From IMG/VR virus record IMGVR_UViG_3300032296_003759: a DNA stretch of 12,361 bases; one strand, written 5' to 3'. Below are positions 1-12,361 of the stretch, one piece after another. Under the pieces are notes generated by a model. That model searched no databases. It saw only the letters and a program-made list of their open reading frames with translations, and was not told the DNA's origin. The position numbers and the translations under genes are program-made. This DNA is from a virus (taxonomy: Duplodnaviria > Heunggongvirae > Uroviricota > Caudoviricetes). Positions within the stretch are counted from its first letter, which is position 1, and every line of letters begins with the position of its first letter.

Positions 1-3000
1 ATCCAGAAGTGAGGATCTATCAAGCATGTCATCAAGAAAATCACCTTGAACAAAGTCAAATTTTTGATAAAGAAGTGTCCAGTATGAAAGATCTGTAGAT
101 TTTGCATAATCTCCAACTATAGCTAGTGTCATTTTACCTGCATCTATAGATCCTAATGAATACTCTTTCATATTTACATACTTCCCAGAGAATGCTTCTA
201 TAAAGTTATTTATACTTGCACCAAAATAATTAATTGTACCACCTACAGGACTAAACATTAATCTAAGTGCTGATCCTGAGGTAAATCCTCTTGAAATCTT
301 ATTTAATATTGGACTATTTACAAGATTATCAGGAACACTATTTAATATTGATTTTTCGTATATTTTTTTAAAATAACCAAGTCTATTTTTATTACCTACT
401 CCTTTTTGATTTACACTAAGAGTATTTATAAGTGCCTCTACAACAGGTAGTCTCTCTGATCTTGCAGCAAAATCATGGGACTTATAATTATATGTAGAAA
501 TAGAATTTACAAGATTTCTTGAAACGAATTCAGGTTTAATCCTTTGTCCCATACCAAGTCTTGGTATATCTTGAGTTAATAATTCTCCAGTTACAGCATT
601 GTAATCTTTTATGTCTCTATAGCCACTTTCTTGTTCGGTTAAATCTGTACTTTCTTGTTGTTTAACAAAAGATACTACTTCATTAAATTTTTCTTTTACT
701 GTTGTACCAATTCTTTCTTTTTCTTCAAGAGCAGTAAGAGTCATTACTGGAACATCTAAATATCTTCTTAATTTTTCATCAACTCTTTCTTGATCTTTTA
801 AATATTGATTTTTCAGTAGTTCCATGTACTGAAAAGTAAGAGAGTTTGATGCTTTTAATTTATAGTATTCTTCATCTATAAATTTATTATCAATAGGATT
901 TTCTTCTTTTGGTAAAGGTAAGAAGTTTCCTCTATTATCTATATGATATCCTACCTTTAATTCAACTTTTCCTGTTTTTGGATTATAACCGGTTCTATAT
1001 TCATCTTTTACTCTTGATACAACAAATCTTTTTGACACAGCACCAACATAATCATCTGGATCTGTTGGAACTAACTGTTGATAAATCATTGATGGATAGA
1101 AATTATATTGTGTGTATCCTAAAAGCTCTTCACTATAACGGCCCACATTTGTAATATGTACTTGTTCAAACCAATCAACTATATCTGTATATTCGTTTTT
1201 ATCTTTACTTTCTAAGTAATCTACTAAAGGCAATATACCTTTAGCAGCATTACCTTCTATCATTATTTTAAATACTTCTCCAATATCTGATTGCTCTTCA
1301 AATAATGATATTAATGAAGCATAATCTCTATATGAAAGAGCCTCTCCTAAATTATAAACAATATTTTTCACATTCTTTGCATAGCTTTTTAGATCATCTA
1401 CTACATCAGCATCCCTACTGATATTTAAAGAATACTCACTAATAGCAATATACAACTCTTCCATTTTTTCCCAATAATAATCTGTTGGAATAAAAGTTTT
1501 TGATGAACCTAAATATTTTATATATTTTTTTATCTCTTTAATTCTTTCATTATCTTTTCCATATTTTTTTTCAATTTCCTTCATTTGAGAAAAGATTTTC
1601 TTCTTTGCAGAAATGCTAAGATTTTTATTATCTGCTCTTTCCCATAGTTCTGCTAATGCTATTATATCTTCTTTTGAGTAAAGAGAATATACTGGATTAG
1701 ATCTAAGTAGTTTATTCTCTTCAAGTTCTCTCTCTAATGCAACAATATTAGCTATTTCATCTTCTTCTAAAGCTTCTGGATTTACTTGATTTCTTTCATC
1801 TTTTGTACCTGCAAGTGTATCTGATATCTTTTCCCATATTTCTTGAGATCTAGTTTTCTCCTGACCTTTTTGAAGCTCTTTTAGTTTTTCTTTAGCTTCG
1901 TTTCTTTTATCCCAAAAACTTTTATTTATTATTATTCTTGTATTATTTCCTTCCCAGTCCTCTCTAAGTTTAGTTGTAGCTCTTTTAATATCTTCTTGAT
2001 CTACAGGTTTCTCTGCATCTTTTCTATTACCATATTCATCTCTTATAAAAAATACATTTATTCCTAGTTCTTGTTTAACCCGTTCTTCAAATTGTGCTAC
2101 AGTAAAAGAATGGACAGCGTTTTTATTCATTACTTCCATTACTTTTGTCATATAAGAGCTTTTGGCAATTGCAAAATTTAGATTTGATTTATCTCTATCT
2201 TCTTCTCTAAATTGAAAAGATTTAGTAAAATATTCTTTTAGCAATCTACCACCTTCTTTTTCTGCTGCTGTTCTTTCAACACCCTCATAATTAAAATCTG
2301 TAAGTAAACTAGAACGAATTTTTCTTAAAGTTGCAATATTAGCTTCTGTTTCTTTTATGTTTGTTCCTCCAACTAATGATCTTCTTTCTTGTTCTATTCT
2401 AATTGATATTAATTCCCATTCATTATATTGGGTCATGAAATTATCATTATCTGCATACTTATCAAATAAATTATTATACTCTCTAGTAAATTCATTAAAT
2501 TTATAATCAGATTGAAACTTTTTCAGTTCTGCATTTGCCTTTTTCCATTCTAGTCTTTTTACTGCTTCTTGACTTGTACCTTTAGCTTCAACATAAGCCT
2601 TCTTTTTTTCAATTATATCATCTAGCATTTTTCTTTCTGCTATATAATACTCATTATATTTTACAGGACTTAAAAATGATACTACGTCTAAAGGAGATCC
2701 ATCCTTAGAATAAGGATCATATTTTTTAGAAACTCTTGTAATTAGTTTTCCAAGTCTATGTGCCTCTCCACTAAGACCTTGTTTTTTTAATTTATCTATT
2801 TCTATATATAAATTTTCAATATCTTCAGCTGATCTCATCTCATTTTCATATACTTTATCTTGTATATAACTTGCAATACTAGATACATATATATCACCAT
2901 TAGCTATTGCAGCATTTGTCCAGAATCCAATTTGTTGAAGAAAGTCTACATCTGTACCTAAACCTAAAAGAAATTGATTTATTTTTTCATCTGTTTCAAC

Positions 3001-4728
3001 AAACTTAGCTATCTTCCTTGAAGTTTCTTCTATACCAAACTGATTTTTTTCATTCACAAAAGTTTGCATTTTTTCCTGTAAATCTTTACCAATAGAGTCT
3101 CTTGTAAATGAAAGTAAATCTTTAAACAATGGTCTAAAGTATTCCCTTTGTTTAGATAGAATTTTTTGTGTTACTATATCAAATTTAGAGGTAGCATCAT
3201 TAATTACAAATAATATTTGCTCTCCGACTTCACCGCTTTCCTGAAGGACCTGTGCAAAATCATTATCTAAAATATTTTTTATATGTCCATATAATTTTGT
3301 GTAAAGTTGAAGTTCATTTATATTATCAACAGCTTTATAAAAATCCTCAACTTTTTCTCTGTTGTTTACTATTTTAATTAAGCTATCTGATAATATTGAT
3401 AGTTTATCTACTGTTTCAAGAAATTGATAAAATGCATTTGTAATGTTATCAGCTGAGGCAACTTCCGATAAAGATATTGAAGATGTAGCTTTTAATCTTT
3501 CATTAAGAGATAATAATGCAGGAAGATCTAAAAATTCTGTACCTATTGTTAATTCTTCTTTAAGCTTACTATACTTTGGATCATCCATTATCTTTTTAAA
3601 AGTATCATTAAACTTTCTTTTAAATAGTCTTATTGAATCTATTACATCTGATAAGTTTTTATCTTTAGATTCTTGATATAAACCTTCAGCTAAAGGTTTT
3701 AACTTAGTAACTTTATCTGAATATCTTTTACCATATTCTTCTTCTGTAAGTTTAAAGAAATAACTACCAGTAAATGCTTCATTTTCAAGTCTTGCTTGAG
3801 CATCTTTTTTAAATTCTTCAGATGCCTCTCCATTTAATATTTCACCTGCAGCTTCATAATAATATTTATAGTCAGGATGTGAGATAATACTTAGGTTAAA
3901 GAACTCTAAAAATTTTCTCAACCATTTTCTTAACCATCCTTCTTTTACTTTTACTAAGTTATTTACTTTTTCATAATTGTTTTCAGAGATTGCAACTATA
4001 TATTCAGCAATAAGTTTTGCAGTTGCTTCTCTTTTAATCTTATCAATATCTGGTTTACCATTTTCTTTTACATATTTTTCTTTATATTGTTTATATACTT
4101 GACCATATATCTCAAAACTTGTAATATTTGAGAGCATGTCTTTCTTTAACTGATTATCATCAGGAAGAAGTTCTACAAAAAAGTGAGCTACCTCTTCAGG
4201 CATTGCTTTTAATCTTTGGTCAGTTCTCAATCCTATAATAAATTCTTTTATAAAAGATACACCATCCTCTGAGAGATTATCTATCAATTCAATTTTAAGA
4301 TTTGGATTTATACTTAAAAGAAAAGAAACTAACTTCTCATATGTAAATTCTGATATTGTAGGTATATGAATTGAGGAAAAGAAAGTATTGTGATTTATTT
4401 TATTAATGAACCTCCCATCTTGGTAGACTCCGTATTCTTTCAATAAATCAATCACTTTAACAGTTTCAGGATCATTTAACTTTTCATAAGTCTGTACAAT
4501 AGAAGGGGTTATGTTTATTTTATATCCTCCTTCTGAAGGAACTAAAAGCTTTGCTTTATAAGAGTTATTAATTTCTAATACTTTATCTAGAGTATCCGGA
4601 AGTTGAGGATACTTTGGAACAAATAAATTTTTATCTTGAATAAATGTAAATAGATTTGTTTGATCTACTTCACCTTTAAGTGAATTATATATTCCGTTTC
4701 TTATCTTATCTTGTAAACTACATTCCAT
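1..4728 (-). CDS. Giant virion cargo/ejection-type protein with N-terminal zincin-like domain (3'-partial, >=1576 aa); absent from the supplied ORF track
   Basis: Manual translation from ATG at 4726-4728 (MECSLQDKIRNGIYNSLKGEVDQTNLFTFIQDKNLFVPKYPQLPD...) found no TAA, TAG or TGA in frame down to base 1 (...YWTLLYQKFDFVQGDFLDDMLDRSSLLD). The nearest upstream in-frame stop is at 4765-4767. Codon style matches the RNAP gene. The product call rests on the PEEVAHFF motif, a mostly helical and charged composition, and the position directly downstream of the virion RNAP. Confidence 0.88.
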   Translation of the reverse strand, partial: MECSLQDKIRNGIYNSLKGEVDQTNLFTFIQDKNLFVPKYPQLPDTLDKVLEINNSYKAKLLVPSEGGYKINITPSIVQTYEKLNDPETVKVIDLLKEYGVYQDGRFINKINHNTFFSSIHIPTISEFTYEKLVSFLLSINPNLKIELIDNLSEDGVSFIKEFIIGLRTDQRLKAMPEEVAHFFVELLPDDNQLKKDMLSNITSFEIYGQVYKQYKEKYVKENGKPDIDKIKREATAKLIAEYIVAISENNYEKVNNLVKVKEGWLRKWLRKFLEFFNLSIISHPDYKYYYEAAGEILNGEASEEFKKDAQARLENEAFTGSYFFKLTEEEYGKRYSDKVTKLKPLAEGLYQESKDKNLSDVIDSIRLFKRKFNDTFKKIMDDPKYSKLKEELTIGTEFLDLPALLSLNERLKATSSISLSEVASADNITNAFYQFLETVDKLSILSDSLIKIVNNREKVEDFYKAVDNINELQLYTKLYGHIKNILDNDFAQVLQESGEVGEQILFVINDATSKFDIVTQKILSKQREYFRPLFKDLLSFTRDSIGKDLQEKMQTFVNEKNQFGIEETSRKIAKFVETDEKINQFLLGLGTDVDFLQQIGFWTNAAIANGDIYVSSIASYIQDKVYENEMRSAEDIENLYIEIDKLKKQGLSGEAHRLGKLITRVSKKYDPYSKDGSPLDVVSFLSPVKYNEYYIAERKMLDDIIEKKKAYVEAKGTSQEAVKRLEWKKANAELKKFQSDYKFNEFTREYNNLFDKYADNDNFMTQYNEWELISIRIEQERRSLVGGTNIKETEANIATLRKIRSSLLTDFNYEGVERTAAEKEGGRLLKEYFTKSFQFREEDRDKSNLNFAIAKSSYMTKVMEVMNKNAVHSFTVAQFEERVKQELGINVFFIRDEYGNRKDAEKPVDQEDIKRATTKLREDWEGNNTRIIINKSFWDKRNEAKEKLKELQKGQEKTRSQEIWEKISDTLAGTKDERNQVNPEALEEDEIANIVALERELEENKLLRSNPVYSLYSKEDIIALAELWERADNKNLSISAKKKIFSQMKEIEKKYGKDNERIKEIKKYIKYLGSSKTFIPTDYYWEKMEELYIAISEYSLNISRDADVVDDLKSYAKNVKNIVYNLGEALSYRDYASLISLFEEQSDIGEVFKIMIEGNAAKGILPLVDYLESKDKNEYTDIVDWFEQVHITNVGRYSEELLGYTQYNFYPSMIYQQLVPTDPDDYVGAVSKRFVVSRVKDEYRTGYNPKTGKVELKVGYHIDNRGNFLPLPKEENPIDNKFIDEEYYKLKASNSLTFQYMELLKNQYLKDQERVDEKLRRYLDVPVMTLTALEEKERIGTTVKEKFNEVVSFVKQQESTDLTEQESGYRDIKDYNAVTGELLTQDIPRLGMGQRIKPEFVSRNLVNSISTYNYKSHDFAARSERLPVVEALINTLSVNQKGVGNKNRLGYFKKIYEKSILNSVPDNLVNSPILNKISRGFTSGSALRLMFSPVGGTINYFGASINNFIEAFSGKYVNMKEYSLGSIDAGKMTLAIVGDYAKSTDLSYWTLLYQKFDFVQGDFLDDMLDRSSLLD
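3898..4338 (-). other. Zincin-like metallopeptidase-fold domain with EExxH...E motif
   Basis: AMPEEVAHFFVELL at 4165-4206 (E178, E179, H182), a downstream KREATAKLIAE containing E234 (4027-4029), then an amphipathic EGWLRKWLRKFLEFF helix (3898-3942). This layout resembles a gluzincin-type HExxH...E domain with the first His replaced by Glu. Confidence 0.7.
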
Positions 4729-4750
4729 AGTGTAAATATATAAAATTTTA
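4729..4750 (-). promoter_or_regulatory. 22-nt intergenic spacer / Shine-Dalgarno-less translation initiation region
   Basis: The minus strand reads TAA-TAAAATTTTATATATTTACACT-ATG. It has no GGAG/AGGA, is AT-rich and has A at -3, consistent with Bacteroidota-style initiation. There is no room for a terminator hairpin, so the two genes are probably co-transcribed. Confidence 0.6.
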
Positions 4751-7700
4751 TTAACATTCTGCTGTTATATCTGGAAAACCTGTATCAGTTTTTACAGAAA
4801 TAGTATTATTTGGTTTGTTTGGTTCAGTTTTAGTTCCTGATCTTAAGTATTCAAAGATATCAACACTATTAGTATCAAGATATGTTACTAAATCTAAAGT
4901 ATAATAATCCTTTCCTTTATAGTAAAGATTATCAAATATATACTTTTCTGTTTTTTTCTTTTTAAATCTTTTTCCATCTGGGTCTACATCTATTTCTACT
5001 CCCTCTCCTTCATAAGTTAAAGAATTCCACTTTATACTTTTTAAAGGATTATTCTCTATAAACTTTATTCTAAAATACTTCATAAACCTTTCGTATGCTT
5101 TTTCTTTACCTATAGTTTTTTGAGATGGATCATTTTTATCATACTGAATTGAAAATTCTTTTTCCATCTGTTCTATAGCTTCTGTAATAAAGCTAGTCCA
5201 AATTTCTAATGGTATTAAATCAGAGAAGTTATCACCAACATTTGTTGCACCACTTTGATATAATGAAAAATAAGCAAGTTCAGTAAAGAATTCTGATATC
5301 TCTTTTGCTTCTTCTACACTATATTGTCTTTCAAGACCAAGAGCTAAAGGGTTAAAGTTTATAAGATTTCTCCACTGGATTATAAATTCATTTCTTTGAT
5401 TTACAGAATTCTCAGAATCTCTATCTAAATATATATTCCAAATTCTAGTATTTGTATTATATCCCTTTTCTCTGTTTAGCTCCTCTGTGAAATCTGCACC
5501 TGATAATTTAAAAGAAAGATCATTTAGTCTAGAAAAAAATAAAACATTATCTCTTATTTCTGGATACCTTTTTATCATTTCATTAAACTTTATTGCAAAG
5601 AACTCTTTTGAATCTTCAAAATTTTTAATTTTTGGAAGAAAATACTCAGAGAAGTTTACACCTTTATATTTACCAAAGTTTTTATATATATACTCTATAT
5701 AATCGTTATCTATCATTTTTGATACTCTTTCAAGATGTTCATTGTTTCCAAAAGTAGATTCCATTATATATTCAAAAGCAAACATATTTTGTTCACTATA
5801 TAATTTAGGAAATAGTTGCATTAATATATCTTTACCTCTCTCAGTATAATCAAAAGGGGCTATCATTGATTGAGTTTCTAGTTTTACTATTTGTTCCAGT
5901 TTAAATATATCATTCTTTTTTATTTCTTCTTTTCTTTTTAAGTTTTTAGTTATAGATTGTATAGTTGCATATTTTGTAGTATCTGTATTATATGAAAATT
6001 CTAAATTCATAAGTGCTGCACTCTCTTCAAATATTGAACCAAAATAAGCAAGTACTTTTTTCTGAAACTCTTCATCTGCATCTTTTCCTTTTCTTATTTC
6101 TCTATCTAATTGTTCTAAACTAAATTCTAAATCTTCACTTAAATAATCATTAAAATCAGAATAAGGTCTTGCAAGACCGTTATTTGCAAGTTTTGTATTA
6201 ATACTTTTAGTAACACTTTCATCATCATTTTTTTTGTAATTTACAGTATAAACTTCATATCTTGGAAAATTAGGATTCCATCTACTTACATATCCCTGTT
6301 TTAGCATTCCTTTTCTCTGTGCAAGTTCTACAAGAGCATGCTTAAGAGAGTATCCTTGAACTGATCTTGATTTTTCTTCAAATAGACTATATAGTTCTTC
6401 TAATATTGGTTGATTTAAAAAGAATGAAACTTCTTTTAAAGGCACACCTGAAAGTACTAAATATGCAGCTATTTTTTTATTTAATTTATTTATTCCAAGA
6501 TAGGGATATGCAGGTGCATTTACAAGGTCAATTGTAGCAGAAACTAATTGATCTAATGTATCTCCAATAAATACTCCATTTAAATCTCTTCCATACATTT
6601 TTATATCTCCTTGACTAGAAATAAATTCAGATCTTCTATTTCTAGGAATAAGTGGAGTCAATGTAGTTTTTCTCTCACCATAAGAGTCTGTGAACTGATT
6701 ATTCATAGTAAATTTAATAAAATTAAATATACTTGAGTTGGTTCTATGAATAGCCCATCCACCTAAATCTTTTCTTTTACCCATAATAAAATCCCATATT
6801 TCATATTCTTTTACATGAGACATGTTAGATATAGTATTACTTTTTGGATCAAATAATTTAAGTTTTTCTTTTTTAGCTTCTGCTTCTCTTCTGAAGTTTG
6901 CCATTTCAACTTCAGAATAATTTTTCTTGGCAGCAATTAGTTCATTTGCTACATCATCTACTGAATCTTGTGTTGTTGGACTAATTAAATGTTCATAATA
7001 TAAAGGTTCTGACATTAATGCAGAGTACTCTTTTATTATCGAATTAGTTATTGATTTTACTAAAATATTTCTTTTCTCAAATACTTCTAGATCTACTCCG
7101 TAATTTGATCTTTCCTCTAAAGAAAATCCATTTTCAGTTTCTAACTCTTCAATTTCTTTTAATATTCTGTAATACTGATCTGCTTCAATTGCATCATTTG
7201 GAATAGTACCCGGATCAGTTTCTACAAATGTACTATGATACTCTTCAAATGTAATATCTCCAAGTCTTGTATTCTTTATTTCTTTTACTAATATATCAAT
7301 TATACTTTCTCTTTTTTCAATTTCTTCTTCATCAAAGAACACAGTTGTTTGCATTCTCTTTTTAGCTTTTTGAATATTTTGTCTTATGATATCATTACTT
7401 TTAGGATCAGTAGAGTCTTTTATTTTTTTACTAAAGTAATTATAAAGAGCTTGTTCTATAATATCAACTCCAATTTTTCCTTCAAGAGAACTCATATAGG
7501 AAATAATATTTGAAGCAAGCTCTGATTTTGTTTTAGAAAGATTTTTTATATCATCTTTTGAAAGTTTCAATTTATCTGTAAGAGATCTTTTTAAATCTCT
7601 TATTTCTTGTTCTGTCAAAGATAATGCTCTAATTCTATCAAAAATTTCTTGATCTTTTATACCATCTAACATTTTTTCAGTAATAAAAGATCCATCTTTA

Positions 7701-10700
7701 GATATTGATGGAAATATCATTTTCATATTATCAATATCAAAGTCAGAACCAGACTTAATAATCTGCTCCATTGGAGCAATAATTATATTACCTGCAGATG
7801 ATGGTAAGAATTCCATTACCTCCATATGGTCTATAAATCCTTCATTGGTAGTAGGAATCCTATTTCCAATAATAGTAAACTTATCCATATGTTTCTCTTT
7901 CCACTCAGCATTCTTCATTGCCTGATTTAATCTTTTTACTGAAGCATCATAGTCTACAACTCTGTTTCCTTTAGAGTTTATATAAGTTACTTTTATTTTT
8001 TCATTAGTTCCTGGATAATTTAAATTTAAAAGATTTTCAAAATCTCCAATCAATGGGATCTTGATTCCCATTTTTCCAACTCTAATCGGATTTCCTTGAT
8101 CATCAAATATTATATCATAGTAAGGTAAGTCATTACTTCCAAACTGAGTAAGTTGTTCATCTGTTGCTTTTTTGAAAATATCTTTAGCATTTACCCATCC
8201 TTCCCATTCATCTCCAGATTTTTCCCAACCTATTCCAGATACTTGAATTAGAGATCTTCCATATAATTTTAACTTTCTCAGTTTTTTATCCATCATACCG
8301 GAAAGTAATTCTTGTATTTCTCTTCTATTAAATGCAAATTCTAAATCCCATTTTGCTTTTCTAGTTTTAGGATCATACTCCAAATAATCAATACCATTGA
8401 TAGTAAAGTTTTGTCTCATCCCTTCTTCTTTCAATACCTTTATAAACTTTTCAAAATCTATAATATTATATTTAAATACATCTTTTCCATTTTCTTTTCC
8501 TTTAGATATTTTTTCTATACCAAGTAAATTAAAAAGATCATTTTCTTGAATTCTCATTAATCTATCAGATAATAACTTTACATCATTATATGAATTCATA
8601 AGCCTATTATATAGTTCCACATCTCCAATAAGCGTAGCTATTTTAAATGCTGGATCAAAAGCTATTTTTCTAAATTGAGTACCATATATATTTGAAAAAG
8701 ATTTATCAAATGTACCTAGTTGATGTTTTAAAAATCCTGATGTAAGTTGTTGTATATTACTATTATCTATTTTTACATCAAAGTTAGATAAGTCATAACC
8801 TTCACCTTTTTTAGTAACCCAAGTTAAAGGATTTTGTCTAAATACTTTAGAGCCTGATTCAAACTTAATATAGTCTATATCGTTTTTTATCATTTCTCTC
8901 ATAAGTTGCTCATCTCTTCTTCCATAAGCAAGTTCTGGAACAATTGCTCTTACTGAAAATTTATCATAGATTGGAGTAAGAGGTCTTCCCTTTTCGTTTA
9001 ATGGTCCAGTATAAGATATTTTAAGTGGGGTAAACTCAGCAAAAGGTTTATGTTTAATTAAATCTAAATCTGCGTTCTTTGCATTTTCCAATTGTTCACC
9101 TTGCATTACTGAGCCATCAATATTTAAATACTGATAATTACCTTTTTTATTTTCATAGTATCTATAGAATGCAAGTTGTCTATTATATTCATCCTGCATT
9201 TCAGGTGTCCAGATTTTAGCTACTAAGGCAAGTGCTTTATAAAAATCTAGACCTATAATACCTTGTCCATCTGTTACTTTTATTTCACCATATGATCCAA
9301 ATTTCAAATCAAATTCATTATTTAGCATACTTGGTATACCAAGAGCTTCTCTAACTCTGTTTATATTATTAAACATTTTACCACTCTTAAAGTATATAGA
9401 TTCCATTACTATATCTTTTACAGACATAGTTTTAATTATACTATAATCTTTATGATCAGCTTTTAATTTATTTTGTGAAATTGAATGTAGTGAAGTAGGA
9501 TTTAATCTATTTAAGATATCATTTCTCATACTATCAATATAGAGTTGATATCCATGATTGGTTATATTTTTACCTCTTTTAAATGGATTTGAATAGTGAT
9601 ATAAATCTCCAAAAATTAGACTATCAAATTCAGATCTTAATATAAATCTATTTATTATAAATGCAGTAGCAATAGGTTCCATAGAAATATTAGCCGCACC
9701 CATTGTAGAGGAAAGAGCAGATCTCTCCTTTGCACTATATAATTTTTTATTTATTAAATCATTATAAAGTAAAGATATTTCTTTTTCAAAATATTTATTC
9801 ACACTGTTTGTAAACTCAATTTTTAAATCATTATATTTATCTGAGAATATTAGTCCTAGTCTTTCTAGTTCTTTTGAACCATCTAATAGTTCCTGACCTG
9901 CAACTTTTAATTTATCTATTAACTCTTGTGGAAGTATATCTTGAAATAAATTTAATTCTTCAGAAAATTTCATTAATTGATCTCCATAGTTAAGATTATA
10001 CCAAAACATTTTTTGAAGTTCTGATATTAAAAGATTCTGCATATATTCAGAAACTTTATTAACTGACATTATATTTGTATTTTTAGAACCAGTTAATAGT
10101 TTTGGAGAAATAGGTAAGTTAATATTTTTTCCATTATAAGAACTAAGTCTAAAAGCCATCATAGAAGGAGATGTTTCAGCTCTTCTGTTTTCAATTACTC
10201 CATATTTTAATAATGTTAATATATCTATAAAAGTTTTTTCTGTTGCAGAAACATCTGATAATCTTCTTTCTTTATATTCTCTTTGTTTTACACCATTTAC
10301 TTCCTTTATATCTATAGTTTTAAAAGAAGCTATATCTTCGACTATTAATTGTACTTTTTCTCCATTTACAACTGTTCTTTTTCCATCGGTATTAAATAAT
10401 GAGTTCAAAAAAAGATTATTTCTTAACCATGGAAGCTCTGGATCTATATGTTGTAATTGAGGATTATTTTTAATATCTGATTTATTTTCAACTTGGTTTA
10501 AAAGATTTGTAACTAATAAAAGTTGAGTTGGATTATAATATGGATACTTTGTTCTATTATCTATTCTAAATGATCCTGATGTAATATCATCTCCATATTG
10601 AGCTTGTATATCAGCAAGGTCTCTAAAATCATAATAATGATTTGTTATTGATATTATTTTAGTAGTTTTTCCATCTACATCATATTTATAATTGTTATCA

Positions 10701-12361
10701 TTCAGAGTTAATGTACCTATTGGACTAGTTGTGAATCCAGGGACAGTTATATTTCTAAGTGATACTTTTTCGGAACCTAAACCTTCTTGTGTAAGTAAGA
10801 GATTTATATCTGAAGGAGAGATTATTTTAGTTTTCAGAAGAGCTTGTACTAAACCTTTATCTTTTGTTGTTTTATCATAATTATCAGCAATGATAGCTTG
10901 TATTTCTTCTTTTCTATTTCTATATTTTGAATTTATTAATATTTCAGCCCAATTAATAAACTCTTGTTCTGATACTTTTTCTAATTCACTGAGACTTATC
11001 AAAATAGAATCTCTTACTTCCATTAATCTTTCTATACCTTCACCGCTTTCAAAAACTCTTTGATCAAACTCTATAGAGAATAGAGAAAAAAATCTTCTTA
11101 AGTCAGCTAGACTTTTACCTAAAAATTTTCTTTTATTTTCTTCATTAAAAGCAAATATGTTTAGATATACAGTTCCCTGATTGCTTATGTATAGTGTATT
11201 TTTAGCATCAAATATATCAAAATTCTCATCATTAAAACTTTCTGATGTAAAATGCTCTTTCTTTAAACGCTGTTTATTTTCTGGATCTAATACCTTAGTT
11301 CTAGGATCTTCAAAATCTTTTTTCCATCTATTTATTATTTTTTGTGATAGACTTCTTGTAAGTACCTCATAGTTTACTATTTTTTTATCAAATCTAGTAG
11401 ATATACTTTGTTGTTTATCTGACATACTATAGTAGTCTACTGTTAACTGAGTATTCATTACTTCAGGTAATGATAGTGCTCCAGTAAAAGATTGTAAAAA
11501 TGTAAACTCTTCTATTATTCTATCTGTACGTTTTGTAGATGTAGGTGAGTCTGTAAGTAAATTTGATAATATTCTTTTTATATCTTTTGCTATAATCTTT
11601 GCTTCTGGTATTACAAGTTGTGTAGCAGGATTATCTAATTCTTTTATAAATAAGTTTAAATCAAACTTTCCAGAAAGTCTCTTTTTTAATCTATGAAATA
11701 GATCATATGGATCAGACCCTACTTCATAACCTAATTCATTTATTTCTAAAACTATTTCACCTGTATTTTTATCTATATATTTTACTACAGGAACTGACAT
11801 TAAGTAATCAAGTATTGCTTTTTCTGCTTTAGATATTGGAGATTCATCATTTGCCGCAACATCAAATTTATCCATTTTACTAGGACCTTCTTCTATAGTG
11901 TCATTTTGATCATTTTGATTTTCAATATCCTGATCAATCATTGAATCATCACTATTTCCTTCACTTAAATCAGATTTTATATTATGTTTTGCTACTTCAT
12001 CCTCTATTGCAAATTTTCTTATAGAAGAGTAGAAAGAATATTTTTTATAATTAGAGAGAAACTCTGGCCAATTTTCTAGTATATTTTTGATCTCAACTTC
12101 TTGTAAATCAGTTAGAGGTTTTCCTTTTCCTTCTAGTCTATCTAATAATTCAATATATACATTAGTAAATACATCTCTTCTGAGTTTGGCAGAACTATTA
12201 AATGATGTAAAAACTCTACCTGCATTAAGTAATTCTTTTCTAACTATTGTATCTATAGATTTTGCATATAAATGCATTCTATCTGGAGATATTATTTCCT
12301 CTTGTTTGCTTAAAGAGGAACTGACACTATTTAATGCACTTTGAAACATATTGTTCTTCAA
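4751..12361 (-). CDS. Virion-associated single-subunit two-barrel DNA-dependent RNA polymerase, crAss-like (phi14:2 gp66-like); probably 5'-partial
   Basis: 2536 sense codons ending in TAA at 4751-4753, followed by a second TAA at 4748-4750. Motifs in the expected order: FGD..Y...FKR (9575-9583), TDGQG (9260-9274), PLK (9020-9028), DKFS (8954-8965), ESGSKV (8843-8860), GTQFRK, RIP (7853-7861), FLP, GSDFDID (7730-7750). The track's initial 'M' is a TTG at the last three bases (12359-12361), so the true start is probably outside the window. The first ATG in the window is at 12347-12349. Confidence 0.93.
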   Translation of the reverse strand: MKNNMFQSALNSVSSSLSKQEEIISPDRMHLYAKSIDTIVRKELLNAGRVFTSFNSSAKLRRDVFTNVYIELLDRLEGKGKPLTDLQEVEIKNILENWPEFLSNYKKYSFYSSIRKFAIEDEVAKHNIKSDLSEGNSDDSMIDQDIENQNDQNDTIEEGPSKMDKFDVAANDESPISKAEKAILDYLMSVPVVKYIDKNTGEIVLEINELGYEVGSDPYDLFHRLKKRLSGKFDLNLFIKELDNPATQLVIPEAKIIAKDIKRILSNLLTDSPTSTKRTDRIIEEFTFLQSFTGALSLPEVMNTQLTVDYYSMSDKQQSISTRFDKKIVNYEVLTRSLSQKIINRWKKDFEDPRTKVLDPENKQRLKKEHFTSESFNDENFDIFDAKNTLYISNQGTVYLNIFAFNEENKRKFLGKSLADLRRFFSLFSIEFDQRVFESGEGIERLMEVRDSILISLSELEKVSEQEFINWAEILINSKYRNRKEEIQAIIADNYDKTTKDKGLVQALLKTKIISPSDINLLLTQEGLGSEKVSLRNITVPGFTTSPIGTLTLNDNNYKYDVDGKTTKIISITNHYYDFRDLADIQAQYGDDITSGSFRIDNRTKYPYYNPTQLLLVTNLLNQVENKSDIKNNPQLQHIDPELPWLRNNLFLNSLFNTDGKRTVVNGEKVQLIVEDIASFKTIDIKEVNGVKQREYKERRLSDVSATEKTFIDILTLLKYGVIENRRAETSPSMMAFRLSSYNGKNINLPISPKLLTGSKNTNIMSVNKVSEYMQNLLISELQKMFWYNLNYGDQLMKFSEELNLFQDILPQELIDKLKVAGQELLDGSKELERLGLIFSDKYNDLKIEFTNSVNKYFEKEISLLYNDLINKKLYSAKERSALSSTMGAANISMEPIATAFIINRFILRSEFDSLIFGDLYHYSNPFKRGKNITNHGYQLYIDSMRNDILNRLNPTSLHSISQNKLKADHKDYSIIKTMSVKDIVMESIYFKSGKMFNNINRVREALGIPSMLNNEFDLKFGSYGEIKVTDGQGIIGLDFYKALALVAKIWTPEMQDEYNRQLAFYRYYENKKGNYQYLNIDGSVMQGEQLENAKNADLDLIKHKPFAEFTPLKISYTGPLNEKGRPLTPIYDKFSVRAIVPELAYGRRDEQLMREMIKNDIDYIKFESGSKVFRQNPLTWVTKKGEGYDLSNFDVKIDNSNIQQLTSGFLKHQLGTFDKSFSNIYGTQFRKIAFDPAFKIATLIGDVELYNRLMNSYNDVKLLSDRLMRIQENDLFNLLGIEKISKGKENGKDVFKYNIIDFEKFIKVLKEEGMRQNFTINGIDYLEYDPKTRKAKWDLEFAFNRREIQELLSGMMDKKLRKLKLYGRSLIQVSGIGWEKSGDEWEGWVNAKDIFKKATDEQLTQFGSNDLPYYDIIFDDQGNPIRVGKMGIKIPLIGDFENLLNLNYPGTNEKIKVTYINSKGNRVVDYDASVKRLNQAMKNAEWKEKHMDKFTIIGNRIPTTNEGFIDHMEVMEFLPSSAGNIIIAPMEQIIKSGSDFDIDNMKMIFPSISKDGSFITEKMLDGIKDQEIFDRIRALSLTEQEIRDLKRSLTDKLKLSKDDIKNLSKTKSELASNIISYMSSLEGKIGVDIIEQALYNYFSKKIKDSTDPKSNDIIRQNIQKAKKRMQTTVFFDEEEIEKRESIIDILVKEIKNTRLGDITFEEYHSTFVETDPGTIPNDAIEADQYYRILKEIEELETENGFSLEERSNYGVDLEVFEKRNILVKSITNSIIKEYSALMSEPLYYEHLISPTTQDSVDDVANELIAAKKNYSEVEMANFRREAEAKKEKLKLFDPKSNTISNMSHVKEYEIWDFIMGKRKDLGGWAIHRTNSSIFNFIKFTMNNQFTDSYGERKTTLTPLIPRNRRSEFISSQGDIKMYGRDLNGVFIGDTLDQLVSATIDLVNAPAYPYLGINKLNKKIAAYLVLSGVPLKEVSFFLNQPILEELYSLFEEKSRSVQGYSLKHALVELAQRKGMLKQGYVSRWNPNFPRYEVYTVNYKKNDDESVTKSINTKLANNGLARPYSDFNDYLSEDLEFSLEQLDREIRKGKDADEEFQKKVLAYFGSIFEESAALMNLEFSYNTDTTKYATIQSITKNLKRKEEIKKNDIFKLEQIVKLETQSMIAPFDYTERGKDILMQLFPKLYSEQNMFAFEYIMESTFGNNEHLERVSKMIDNDYIEYIYKNFGKYKGVNFSEYFLPKIKNFEDSKEFFAIKFNEMIKRYPEIRDNVLFFSRLNDLSFKLSGADFTEELNREKGYNTNTRIWNIYLDRDSENSVNQRNEFIIQWRNLINFNPLALGLERQYSVEEAKEISEFFTELAYFSLYQSGATNVGDNFSDLIPLEIWTSFITEAIEQMEKEFSIQYDKNDPSQKTIGKEKAYERFMKYFRIKFIENNPLKSIKWNSLTYEGEGVEIDVDPDGKRFKKKKTEKYIFDNLYYKGKDYYTLDLVTYLDTNSVDIFEYLRSGTKTEPNKPNNTISVKTDTGFPDITAEC
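7730..7861 (-). other. RNAP catalytic barrel (DPBB-A, beta'-like): R-I-P motif and DxDxD Mg-binding loop (D1540, D1542, D1544 in track numbering)
   Basis: Reads IGNRIPTTNEGFIDHMEVMEFLPSSAGNIIIAPMEQIIKSGSDFDIDNM. DFDID is the crAss-type counterpart of the DFDGD loop of cellular RNAP beta' and QDE-1-like polymerases. Confidence 0.92.
8843..9274 (-). other. RNAP second barrel (DPBB-B, beta-like) motifs: TDGQG, PLK, DKFS, ESGSKV
   Basis: These motifs occur upstream of the DxDxD barrel in the order expected for single-chain two-barrel polymerases (an acidic TDG motif followed by conserved lysines). The assignment is by motif recognition, not by alignment. Confidence 0.75.
11901..11918. repeat. 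9-bp tandem duplication (tcattttga x2) encoding QND-QND inside an acidic linker
   Basis: Directly visible on line 11881. It is in frame and lies within SDLSEGNSDDSMIDQDIENQNDQNDTIEEG. Confidence 0.6.

What the first reader, a model, noticed from the sequence alone, without database searches (positions are those of the whole stretch)
4720..4759. The only two cysteines in 4112 residues face each other across the gene junction (RNAP ...AEC-stop / MEC... cargo): candidate head-to-tail Cys linkage of ejected virion proteins
Seen in sequence: the 2536-aa RNAP has one Cys, its final residue (TGT, 4754-4756). The 1576-aa downstream protein has one Cys, residue 3 (TGT, 4720-4722). Both sit in an identical Glu-Cys dipeptide (GAATGT), 34 nt apart. 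If each lone Cys were placed at random, the chance of both lying within 3 residues of these termini is about (3/2536)x(3/1576), roughly 2e-6. The RNAP Cys ends a 29-aa polar, Pro/Thr/Asn-rich tail (SGTKTEPNKPNNTISVKTDTGFPDITAEC, 4754-4840) that looks like a flexible tether. Established: crAss-like phages package their RNAP and neighbouring giant proteins in the capsid and deliver them through a narrow tail. Inference: the terminal cysteines could join consecutive cargo proteins into a chain in gene order, by disulfide or a shared metal site, for co-packaging, stoichiometry or ordered threading, with release on reduction in the cytoplasm. My impression that M-x-C starts and terminal Cys recur in crAss-like giant proteins is unverified recollection. 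I know of no described system of this kind.
Basis: partly seen in the sequence, partly recalled or inferred. Interest (0 to 1): 0.88.

Follow-up and report, generated by a model that had tools for sequence, protein, structure and literature searches.

The report
Terminal cysteine pairs chain crAss cargo
The giant proteins that this freshwater crAss-like phage packs and injects, its RNA polymerase among them, have almost no cysteine except one at each end that faces the next protein; this rule holds in every relative checked and suggests an undescribed end-to-end tie into one thread.

Summary
In the window the RNA polymerase (RNAP) piece has one Cys, its last residue, and the downstream protein Y has one Cys, residue 3.

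The pattern extends beyond the window. The full RNAP (3286 aa) also has Cys4. The upstream 2576-aa protein X has one Cys, third from its end.

The rule holds in relatives:
- All 26 full-length RNAP relatives have Cys4, and all 28 have a C-terminal Cys.
- 47 of 49 Y relatives have Cys3 or Cys4 and none has a C-terminal Cys.
- 9 of 9 X relatives have only a C-terminal Cys.
- It also holds in phi14:2, crAss001, p-crAssphage, crAss002, IAS virus, cr50_1, cr52_1 and Fpv1.

Pairs follow the gene breaks. Fused genes lack them and inserted small proteins carry both. The window's own RNAP tail is the leftover tail of such a small protein, with one pair lost.

Best reading (about 0.6): the facing cysteines tie X, RNAP and Y head to tail, probably by disulfides, into one thread for ejection that is released by reduction in the host. 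The chemistry is untested.

Cysteine suppression in ejected phage proteins is already published for N4-like phages. I found the terminal pairs in no paper. This scan has already reported the same rule on at least 45 other windows.

The parts
4751..12361 (-). 3' 77% of the virion RNA polymerase gene (residues 751-3286 of the 3286-aa protein P0001, plus the stop codon)
   Evidence: ORF and translation. Full length. tblastn to crAss001 gp50: E 4e-9. Profile hits to phi14:2 g066 (7e-17) and crAss001 gp50 (2e-9).
7730..7744 (-). DFDID catalytic motif of the crAss-type RNAP
   Evidence: Found at residues 1540-1544 of the window ORF. The three Asp and the Phe are invariant in 26 homologues. The same motif is the catalytic site of phi14:2 gp66.
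4754..4876 (-). C-terminal 41-residue tail of the RNAP, predicted disordered and ending in the terminal Cys
   Evidence: AF2 pLDDT is 33-44 over the last 41 residues. The 20 tail positions before the Cys are 7-26% pairwise identical among 28 homologues, against 100% for the Cys.
4754..4825 (-). Last 24 residues of the tail, homologous to the C-terminal tail of a separate 246-aa link protein in a close relative
   Evidence: 13 of 24 residues are identical to the end of L011:16072-16812.
4754..4756 (-). Codon of the RNAP C-terminal Cys (last residue)
   Evidence: A C-terminal Cys is present within the last 4 residues in 28 of 28 homologues.
4729..4750 (-). 22-nt spacer between the RNAP stop and the Y start
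   Evidence: No terminator-like site; promoter-like sites are no more frequent than in shuffles.
4720..4722 (-). Codon of Cys3 of protein Y
   Evidence: Cys at position 3 or 4 in 47 of 49 homologues.
1..4728 (-). First 1576 of 1917 codons of protein Y, the RNAP-associated cargo protein (orthologue of crAss001 gp49 and phi14:2 gp65)
   Evidence: Profile hits: gp49 2e-32, g065 2e-7.
4429..4728 (-). N-terminal folded domain of Y (about 100 residues); Cys3 sits on a 4-residue free end before helix 5-23
   Evidence: AF2 block means rise from 72 (residues 1-10) to 84-95 (residues 11-80) and are 73-77 over residues 81-100; residues 1-4 are coil.
4162..4200 (-). Conserved motif (P-E-E-x-x-H ... E) in the region that the literature calls zincin-like in gp65 orthologues
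   Evidence: E179 and H182 are invariant; P177, E178 and E186 are conserved in at least 90% of sequences. Coordinates. Zincin-like annotation of gp65.

Best explanation
The window holds the junction between two members of the crAss-type virion cargo set: the giant RNA polymerase and the RNAP-associated protein Y. With the upstream protein X, these proteins are kept nearly free of cysteine. The exception is one Cys at each end that faces the next protein: X has one at its C-terminus, the RNAP one at each end, and Y one at its N-terminus.

I read these as connectors. The disordered C-terminal tail of one protein brings its thiol to the short free N-terminal end of the next. The two are then joined, most likely by a disulfide that forms once the particle is outside the reducing cytoplasm.

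The result would be one quasi-linear thread of about 7,800 residues, X-S-S-RNAP-S-S-Y. It could be pulled through the narrow portal and tail channel as if it were a single polypeptide. It would fall apart into its parts when reduced in the host cytoplasm. The lack of any other Cys would prevent wrong links.

Shown: the sequence pattern, its conservation, and its gain and loss with gene breaks. Known from the literature: virion packaging of the three proteins in phi14:2 and crAss001. Inferred: the bond itself, its chemistry, its timing and its role in ejection.
For: (1) Conservation:
- RNAP: all 26 full-length homologues have Cys4 and all 28 have a Cys in the last 4 residues.
- Y: 47 of 49 have Cys3 or Cys4 and none has a C-terminal Cys.
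- X: 9 of 9 have exactly one Cys, last or third from the end, and no N-terminal Cys.
- Over 206,612 residues there are 125 Cys; 110 are terminal and internal Cys is 0.007%. Neighbouring genes have 1.5-2.2%.
- The Cys is the only conserved position in a fast-evolving tail.

(2) The same rule holds in reference phages that I tabulated myself:
- phi14:2 g067 / g066 / g065: 4 Cys in 5398 aa, all terminal.
- crAss001 gp47 / gp50 / gp49.
- p-crAssphage gp45 / gp44.
- crAss002 gp32 / gp33.
- IAS virus, cr50_1, cr52_1 and Fpv1.
- In crAss001 and IAS virus the first gene is on the other strand, so the feature is at protein level.

(3) Pairs track polypeptide breaks:
- Fpv1 gp33 (X and RNAP fused, 4401 aa) has a single Cys, at 4400.
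- p-crAssphage gp44 and crAss002 gp33 (RNAP and Y fused; fusion confirmed by profiles) have no C-terminal Cys.
- L002 and L011 each have an extra small protein between RNAP and Y. The two are unrelated, and each has just two Cys, one at each end.
- The complete relative G001 has X in two pieces with a pair at the break.
- The X|RNAP break lies on opposite sides of a nuclease/HExxH domain block in this clade and in crAss001. The pair follows the break.

(4) In this window the RNAP tail is the retained tail of the L011-type small protein. The tail that precedes Y stays the same whichever protein carries it, and one pair is lost with the small protein's body.

(5) An independent sample, chosen by a P-loop domain and not by termini:
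- 82 of 86 giant proteins have terminal Cys (32 C-only, 27 N-only, 23 both).
- 31 small ones carry a Cys at each end and no more than two in all.

(6) Geometry fits: the tail is disordered, and Cys3 sits on a free end of a folded domain.

(7) Literature:
- The three proteins are in the virion and must be partly unfolded to pass constrictions narrower than 50 A.
- Disulfides do exist elsewhere in crAss001 particles.
Against: - No experiment shows a link of any kind. The cargo was not resolved in the crAss001 maps.
- Virions assemble in a reducing cytoplasm. I found no Erv1/ALR or thioredoxin family gene in five crAss-like records (the Erv1 search had no positive control).
- Gut crassviruses live in an anoxic habitat, so spontaneous oxidation is not assured.
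- Some terminal Cys lie 9-11 residues from the end (crAss001 gp50; cr10_1 gp32).
- Gut phages keep several internal Cys: 7 in p-crAssphage gp44 and about 9 in IAS virus RNAP.
- Near-C-terminal Cys without a facing partner exist in other cargo-block proteins: p-crAssphage gp47 and gp48, and crAss002 gp30.
- Equal numbers of N- and C-terminal Cys would also fit like-with-like pairing.
- Retention of the tail could be a historical accident of how the small gene was inserted or lost.
Confidence: 0.62

Rival explanations
1. The facing cysteines hold consecutive proteins together through a shared metal ion, or help a non-covalent docking of tail and head. No disulfide forms.
For: The pattern and its tracking of gene breaks fit this equally well. 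It needs no oxidant, which suits the reducing cytoplasm and the anoxic gut. No oxidase gene was found. An acidic residue often precedes the Cys.
Against: Two thiols alone make a weak metal site. No His or further Cys is conserved near either end. A metal bridge would hardly withstand pulling through the channel.
Confidence: 0.15
2. The terminal cysteines pair like with like (X with X, Y with Y, RNAP copies with each other), or tie each protein to another virion part such as the portal or inner capsid. They do not pair head to tail with the next protein.
For: Sequence cannot tell which thiol meets which. Unpaired near-terminal Cys exist in other cargo proteins. The crAss001 portal-vertex protein gp57 forms inter-subunit disulfides.
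Against: This gives no reason why the first protein always lacks an N-terminal Cys and the last a C-terminal one. It does not explain why fusions lose exactly the facing pair, or why each inserted protein carries both. It also does not explain why the tail before Y stays constant when its carrier changes.
Confidence: 0.12
3. The cysteines serve an enzymatic or chemical step such as processing or true peptide ligation. For example, the residues before the N-terminal Cys are trimmed and an acyl shift occurs at the C-terminal Cys. The result would be a real polyprotein.
For: - Cargo proteins carry protease-like motifs: HExxH in the RNAP N-terminal part and a zincin-like region in Y.
- Some relatives encode the set as one fused protein.
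Against: The N-terminal Cys is at position 3-6, never position 1. The C-terminal Cys may be followed by up to 10 residues. No ligase-like protein was identified, and there is no precedent in phages that I know of.
Confidence: 0.04
4. The terminal cysteines have no function. Cysteine is purged from ejected proteins, as in N4-like phages, and is merely tolerated at the floppy ends.
For: Cys suppression in ejected proteins is documented for Schitoviridae.
Against: - N4-type proteins have no Cys at all, termini included.
- Here the terminal Cys is 100% conserved in tails that are otherwise 7-26% identical.
- Background ORFs have a Cys at residues 2-5 in 5 of 137 cases and in the last five residues in 10 of 137.
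- Pairs appear and vanish with gene breaks.
Confidence: 0.03

Closest known systems
RNAP cargo set of Crassvirales: phi14:2 gp67-gp66-gp65 and crAss001 gp47-gp50-gp49
   Same: - Homologous RNAP with the DFDID site, and a homologous Y protein.
- The three proteins are found in virions.
- They show the same terminal-Cys pattern when I tabulate them.
   Different: - This freshwater clade has much larger proteins (3286-aa RNAP).
- The nuclease/HExxH block that ends crAss001 gp47 sits at the start of the RNAP chain here.
- The papers on these phages do not mention the terminal cysteines.
Cysteine-free ejection proteins of N4-like phages (N4 gp50, DEV gp71-gp73)
   Same: These are giant virion RNAPs and partners that are ejected into the host. 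They show strong suppression of cysteine, explained by passage through the envelope.
   Different: There the RNAP is one chain of about 3,400-3,500 aa with no Cys at all. Here the set is several chains, and exactly the facing ends keep one Cys each.
Fused 'polyprotein' forms of the same set (p-crAssphage gp44, crAss002 gp33, Fpv1 gp33, cr50_1 and cr10_1 giants)
   Same: The same domains occur in the same order. The literature supposes they are cut into parts.
   Different: In fused forms a peptide bond stands where the split forms have a Cys pair. The window's phage is a split form that has re-fused one small link.
Covalent linear protein polymers: sortase-built pili of Gram-positive bacteria; disulfide concatemers of von Willebrand factor and mucins (my own knowledge, not tested here)
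   Same: Separate polypeptides are joined end to end by covalent bonds into a long thread.
   Different: Those are homopolymers, or use Cys-rich domains or isopeptide bonds made by enzymes, and they stay linked. Here the chain would be ordered and heterotypic, joined by single thiols, and meant to be undone on delivery.
Phage genes split by free-standing homing endonuclease genes (T4-like phages; my own knowledge)
   Same: In the complete relative G001, GIY-YIG endonuclease ORFs lie exactly in two junctions of the chain.
   Different: As far as I know, split enzymes in T4-like phages reassemble non-covalently. Here each break carries a Cys pair.

Membership tests
crAss-type virion RNA polymerase (phi14:2 gp66 family) | DFDxD catalytic motif | tested here: met
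   DFDID at 7730-7744. The Asp residues are invariant in 26 homologues. The motif is defined.
crAss-type virion RNA polymerase (phi14:2 gp66 family) | Sequence homology to gp66 / crAss001 gp50 | tested here: met
   tblastn E 4e-9 to crAss001 gp50. Profile E 7e-17 to g066 and 2e-9 to gp50. Searches of PDB sequences gave no hit.
crAss-type virion RNA polymerase (phi14:2 gp66 family) | Packaged in the virion and ejected | not testable with these tools
   Known for phi14:2 and crAss001 only.
RNAP-associated cargo protein (phi14:2 gp65 / crAss001 gp49) | Sequence homology and position right after the RNAP | tested here: met
   Profile E 2e-32 to gp49 and 2e-7 to g065. Gene order.
RNAP-associated cargo protein (phi14:2 gp65 / crAss001 gp49) | Zincin-like metalloprotease motif | tested here: inconclusive
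   A P-E-E-x-x-H ... E motif is conserved in at least 90% of sequences, with E179 and H182 invariant, but it is not a canonical HExxH. No Pfam hit.
Cysteine-free ejection proteins (N4-like type) | No cysteine anywhere in the protein | tested here: not met
   Internal Cys is nearly absent (0.007%), but terminal Cys are conserved.
Terminal-cysteine cargo chain (pattern reported by this scan, not in the literature) | Facing Cys at every junction; none at the outer ends of the set | tested here: met
   Window contig. Relatives and reference phages.
Terminal-cysteine cargo chain (pattern reported by this scan, not in the literature) | The pair is lost on gene fusion and gained on a split or insertion | tested here: met
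   Fusions. Insertions and splits. The window's own re-fusion.
Terminal-cysteine cargo chain (pattern reported by this scan, not in the literature) | A physical bond between the facing cysteines | not testable with these tools
   This needs non-reducing gels and disulfide mapping of virions.

The most novel reading that the evidence does not exclude
The motif pair (Met-x-Cys at the start, Cys at or next to the end) is a general plug-in grammar. Any protein that carries it becomes a bead on a single covalent thread that the phage injects in a fixed order. Enzymes such as the P-loop domain proteins can be inserted, moved or fused without changing the delivery machine. The disulfides replace peptide bonds of an ancestral polyprotein and are undone by the host's reducing cytoplasm.
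Probability: 0.4. Interest if true: 0.9.

Novelty: categorically new. Interest (0 to 1): 0.82.

Why it matters
How crAss-like phages get several proteins of 150-380 kDa out of the capsid, in order, through a channel narrower than the folded proteins is an open question. These phages are the most abundant viruses of the human gut.

A head-to-tail tie would turn the problem into threading one chain. It would fix stoichiometry and order, and it would provide a built-in release switch by reduction.

The idea is directly testable with existing cultured phages (phi14:2, crAss001) by one non-reducing gel and disulfide mapping.

The rule is also a practical annotation aid. It marks true starts and ends of cargo genes, flags frameshifted or mis-started calls, and identifies new cargo proteins of unknown family.

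Tried and rejected
- Megablast of the junction against phage records found no match.
- PHROGs found nothing for the two window proteins, X or the 246-aa link. The 288-aa link gave one weak match to a family of unknown function (phrog_4182, E 3.5e-4). Pfam gave only sub-threshold matches for the window proteins.
- The first scan of viral contigs with a single protein found no relative. Alignment-based scans gave only four loci.
- Co-folding the RNAP C-terminal 450 aa with the Y N-terminal 400 aa gave no verdict (score 0.06, under the mark). It is not used as evidence either way.
- Searches of PDB sequences with the RNAP and with its profile found no hit.
- A search for a phage thiol oxidase or thioredoxin in five crAss-like records found none. 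The Erv1 search had no positive control.
- The supplement of the crAss001 structure paper holds only a reporting summary.
- Apparent exceptions among RNAP homologues were resolved. P0004 is a frameshifted gene call and P0027 is cut by a contig end. P0074, a longer Y form, has no Cys at the fusion point.
- I tested whether the 288-aa link of L002 is a split-off piece of the RNAP and rejected it (no similarity).
- I considered a CaaX-like lipidation signal and rejected it. The Cys is usually the very last residue, and prenylation is not known in bacteria (my own knowledge).
- A nucleotide-level cause at the gene junction is rejected. Codon contexts differ among relatives, and in crAss001 the first gene is on the other strand.
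Full report
**The observation.** The window carries two minus-strand ORFs.
- The first, 4751..12361, is cut by the window edge. Its 2536 visible residues hold one Cys, the last residue (codon 4754-4756).
- The second, 1..4728, runs off the other edge. Its 1576 visible residues hold one Cys, residue 3 (codon 4720-4722).
- A 22-nt spacer separates them.
- The start of the second gene is safe. It is the first ATG after an in-frame stop, the next possible start is codon 92, and Cys3 is invariant in an alignment of 37 homologues that begins at Met1.
- Genes a few kb away on the same contig have 2.2% Cys, so the depletion is not compositional.

**What the genes are.**
- tblastn links the first ORF to the 'putative RNA polymerase' gp50 of crAss001 (E 4e-9).
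- A profile of 26 homologues hits the experimentally studied virion RNAP gp66 of phi14:2 (7e-17) and the RNAP parts of p-crAssphage gp44, crAss002 gp33, crAss001 gp50 and Fpv1 gp33.
- The catalytic DFDID motif lies at 7730-7744.
- The second ORF, here called Y, is the orthologue of crAss001 gp49 (2e-32) and phi14:2 gp65 (2e-7).
- In phi14:2 and crAss001 the RNAP and its two neighbours are present in virions. They are thought to be partly unfolded to leave through the tail.

**Beyond the window.** The window's contig was recovered as L001. The gene order and cysteines are:
- X, 2576 aa: only Cys 2574.
- RNAP, 3286 aa: Cys4 and Cys3286.
- Y, 1917 aa: Cys3, plus Cys1682. Residue 1682 is Gly in the cluster representative, so it is a polymorphism.
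- Next come a 71-aa protein and then very Cys-rich proteins (35 Cys in 633 aa).

**Conservation**.
- All 26 full-length RNAP homologues (29-67% identical) start M-A/P/V-F-C, and all 28 have a Cys in the last four residues. The two that lack the N-terminal Cys are a frameshifted call and a gene cut by a contig end.
- 47 of 49 Y homologues have Cys3 or Cys4, usually as their only Cys, and none has a C-terminal Cys.
- 9 of 9 X homologues have exactly one Cys, last or third from the end.
- In 206,612 residues there are 125 Cys, of which 110 are terminal.
- In the 20 positions before the RNAP's terminal Cys, pairwise identity is 7-26%. The Cys itself is 100% conserved.
- In a complete 155-kb relative (G001), 137 other ORFs have 1.48% Cys. 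Five have a Cys at residues 2-5 and ten in the last five residues.

**Reference phages, tabulated by me.**

| Phage | First protein | Middle protein | Last protein |
|---|---|---|---|
| phi14:2 | g067: only Cys is the last residue | g066: Cys3 and Cys2179 of 2180 | g065: only Cys3 |
| crAss001 | gp47: only Cys2339 of 2341 | gp50: Cys5, 1334, 2404 of 2412 | gp49: only Cys5 |

- In crAss001, gp47 is encoded on the opposite strand. The pattern therefore belongs to the proteins and not to the DNA of a gene junction.
- p-crAssphage, crAss002, IAS virus, cr50_1, cr52_1 and the flavobacterial phage Fpv1 all show a facing pair at each junction.
- crAss002 gp33 fits the rule only if it starts at Met33, which is followed by Ser-Cys.
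- Gut phages keep a few internal Cys.

**Pairs follow polypeptide breaks.**
- Fusions lack the pair.
  - Fpv1 gp33 (X plus RNAP, 4401 aa) has a single Cys, at 4400.
  - p-crAssphage gp44 and crAss002 gp33 contain both RNAP and Y by profile. They have the N-terminal Cys but no C-terminal one.
  - In p-crAssphage gp44 no Cys pair lies at the estimated fusion point.
- Insertions bring pairs.
  - L002 has a 288-aa P-loop protein between RNAP and Y, with just Cys3 and Cys288.
  - L011 has an unrelated 246-aa protein in the same slot, with just Cys5 and Cys246.
  - In both loci the RNAP itself still ends in a Cys.
- In G001, X is in two pieces (1311 aa with Cys1310; 691 aa with Cys3 and Cys690). GIY-YIG endonuclease ORFs lie in the junctions.
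- The X|RNAP break itself has moved.
  - The PD-(D/E)XK-like and HExxH block that ends crAss001 gp47 opens the RNAP chain in this clade.
  - The evidence is BLASTP E 2e-9 and 2e-5, profile 1.6e-29 and Pfam PF12705.
  - In each case the pair sits at the actual break.

**What is special in this window.**
The last 41 residues have pLDDT 33-44.
- Its last 24 residues align, 13 of 24 identical, with the tail of the 246-aa link protein of the close relative L011.
- The part before the tail aligns with the end of L011's RNAP, which stops at a Cys right there.
- So this phage's RNAP has absorbed the tail of the link protein. The link's body and one Cys pair are gone, but the tail that faces Y is kept.
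- In L002 likewise, the Pro-rich tail ending P-E-C is found on the inserted protein. In relatives without the insert, the RNAP itself carries that kind of tail before Y.
- This suggests that tail plus Cys is matched to the next protein's head.
- On the Y side, Cys3 sits on a four-residue free end before the first helix of a confidently folded domain of about 100 residues.

**An independent sample.** The P-loop domain of the L002 link was searched against 1.84 billion cluster representatives. Results for the best 150 hits:
- 86 are 800 aa or longer. Of these, 82 have terminal Cys (32 C-only, 27 N-only, 23 both), with internal Cys at 0.055%.
- 31 of the 64 shorter ones carry a Cys at each end and no more than two in all.

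These proteins were picked by an internal domain and not by their ends. The grammar is therefore widespread, and the domain can be first, middle or last bead.

**Mechanism.** The most economical reading is a head-to-tail tie of consecutive cargo proteins.
- I favour a disulfide for three reasons.
  - A single thiol on each side is a poor metal site.
  - Disulfides are seen elsewhere in crAss001 particles.
  - Reduction in the host gives a natural release.
- A link between extreme ends leaves only a stub of 0-10 residues, so the joined chain stays thread-like.
- Purging all other Cys would prevent wrong links. That part resembles the published Cys suppression in N4-like ejection proteins.
- Weak points:
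  - There is no experiment.
  - Assembly happens in a reducing cytoplasm.
  - I found no oxidase gene.
  - Gut crassviruses live in an anoxic habitat.
  - Some cargo-block proteins have near-terminal Cys without a partner.
  - Like-with-like pairing cannot be excluded from sequence alone.
- The co-folding job gave no verdict and is not used.

**Novelty.**
- Neither the crAss001 structure paper nor the phi14:2 RNAP preprint mentions these cysteines.
- Full-text searches found no paper on them.
- This scan has already reported the same rule on at least 45 other windows. I repeated its main claims myself, including the loss of pairs in fused genes.
- This window adds four things:
  - the absorbed-link event;
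  - the moved X|RNAP break;
  - the endonuclease genes at junctions;
  - the sample chosen by the P-loop domain.

Noticed in passing
L001:10001-12000 (RNAP residues 1-650, outside the window): The RNAP chain of this clade begins with a PD-(D/E)XK nuclease-like domain (Pfam PF12705, E 1.4e-4) and an invariant HExxH motif. Both are homologous to the C-terminal part of crAss001 gp47. The polypeptide break lies on the other side of this block than in crAss001.
   Followed up: partly
L001:25642-25857 (also L002:25793-26035, L011:22628-22843, L012:11732-11935): A small gene (67-80 aa) directly after Y is conserved in all loci and has a single Cys at position 34 or 35. Its function is unknown, and Y has no C-terminal Cys that could face it.
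   Followed up: no
L001:25965-29861; G001 147567-148337: The genes after the cargo block are extremely Cys-rich (35 Cys in 633 aa; 24 in 256 aa). They are probably external fibre or spike proteins, in sharp contrast with the cargo proteins.
   Followed up: no
G001 (L020) 125667-126281 and 128335-129120: Two GIY-YIG homing endonuclease-like ORFs (204 and 261 aa, with normal Cys content) lie exactly in two junctions of the cargo chain of a complete 155-kb relative. This hints that mobile endonuclease genes create or exploit the breaks.
   Followed up: partly
L002:19207-20073: The inserted 288-aa link protein has a P-loop (Walker A) domain at residues about 118-272. The domain recurs inside many giant Cys-poor proteins and as small stand-alone proteins. 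The only family matches are weak: AAA_18 and AAA_33 in Pfam, and phrog_4182 of unknown function. Its activity is unknown.
   Followed up: partly
L011:6265-16069: The RNAP of this close relative is called as two overlapping ORFs (1270 and 2022 aa). This is a frameshift, either an assembly error or real. The two Cys at the end of the first piece are out-of-frame read-through.
   Followed up: partly
L009:17088-17190 (crAss002 gp33): The annotated start is probably 32 codons too early. Met33 is followed by Ser-Cys, like the Met-Ser-Cys start of p-crAssphage gp44.
   Followed up: partly
L024 (cr52_1) 2949-24894: The cargo genes show 6-37 in-frame stops each under table 11. This phage therefore reads a stop codon as a residue in its late genes, and the facing Cys pair is still present.
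   Followed up: no
L008 gp47 and gp48; L009 gp30: Other cargo-block proteins have a lone Cys near the C-terminal end with no facing N-terminal Cys: Cys856 of 857 in p-crAssphage gp47, and Cys within a basic R-C-G-G tail in p-crAssphage gp48 (259 of 264) and crAss002 gp30 (550 of 557). They do not fit the simple chain.
   Followed up: no
P0002 and P0003 (RNAP homologues), residues about 2146-2149 and 1969-1972: Two close relatives carry an internal C-x-x-C that the window's RNAP lacks. It is possibly a small inserted metal-binding element.
   Followed up: no
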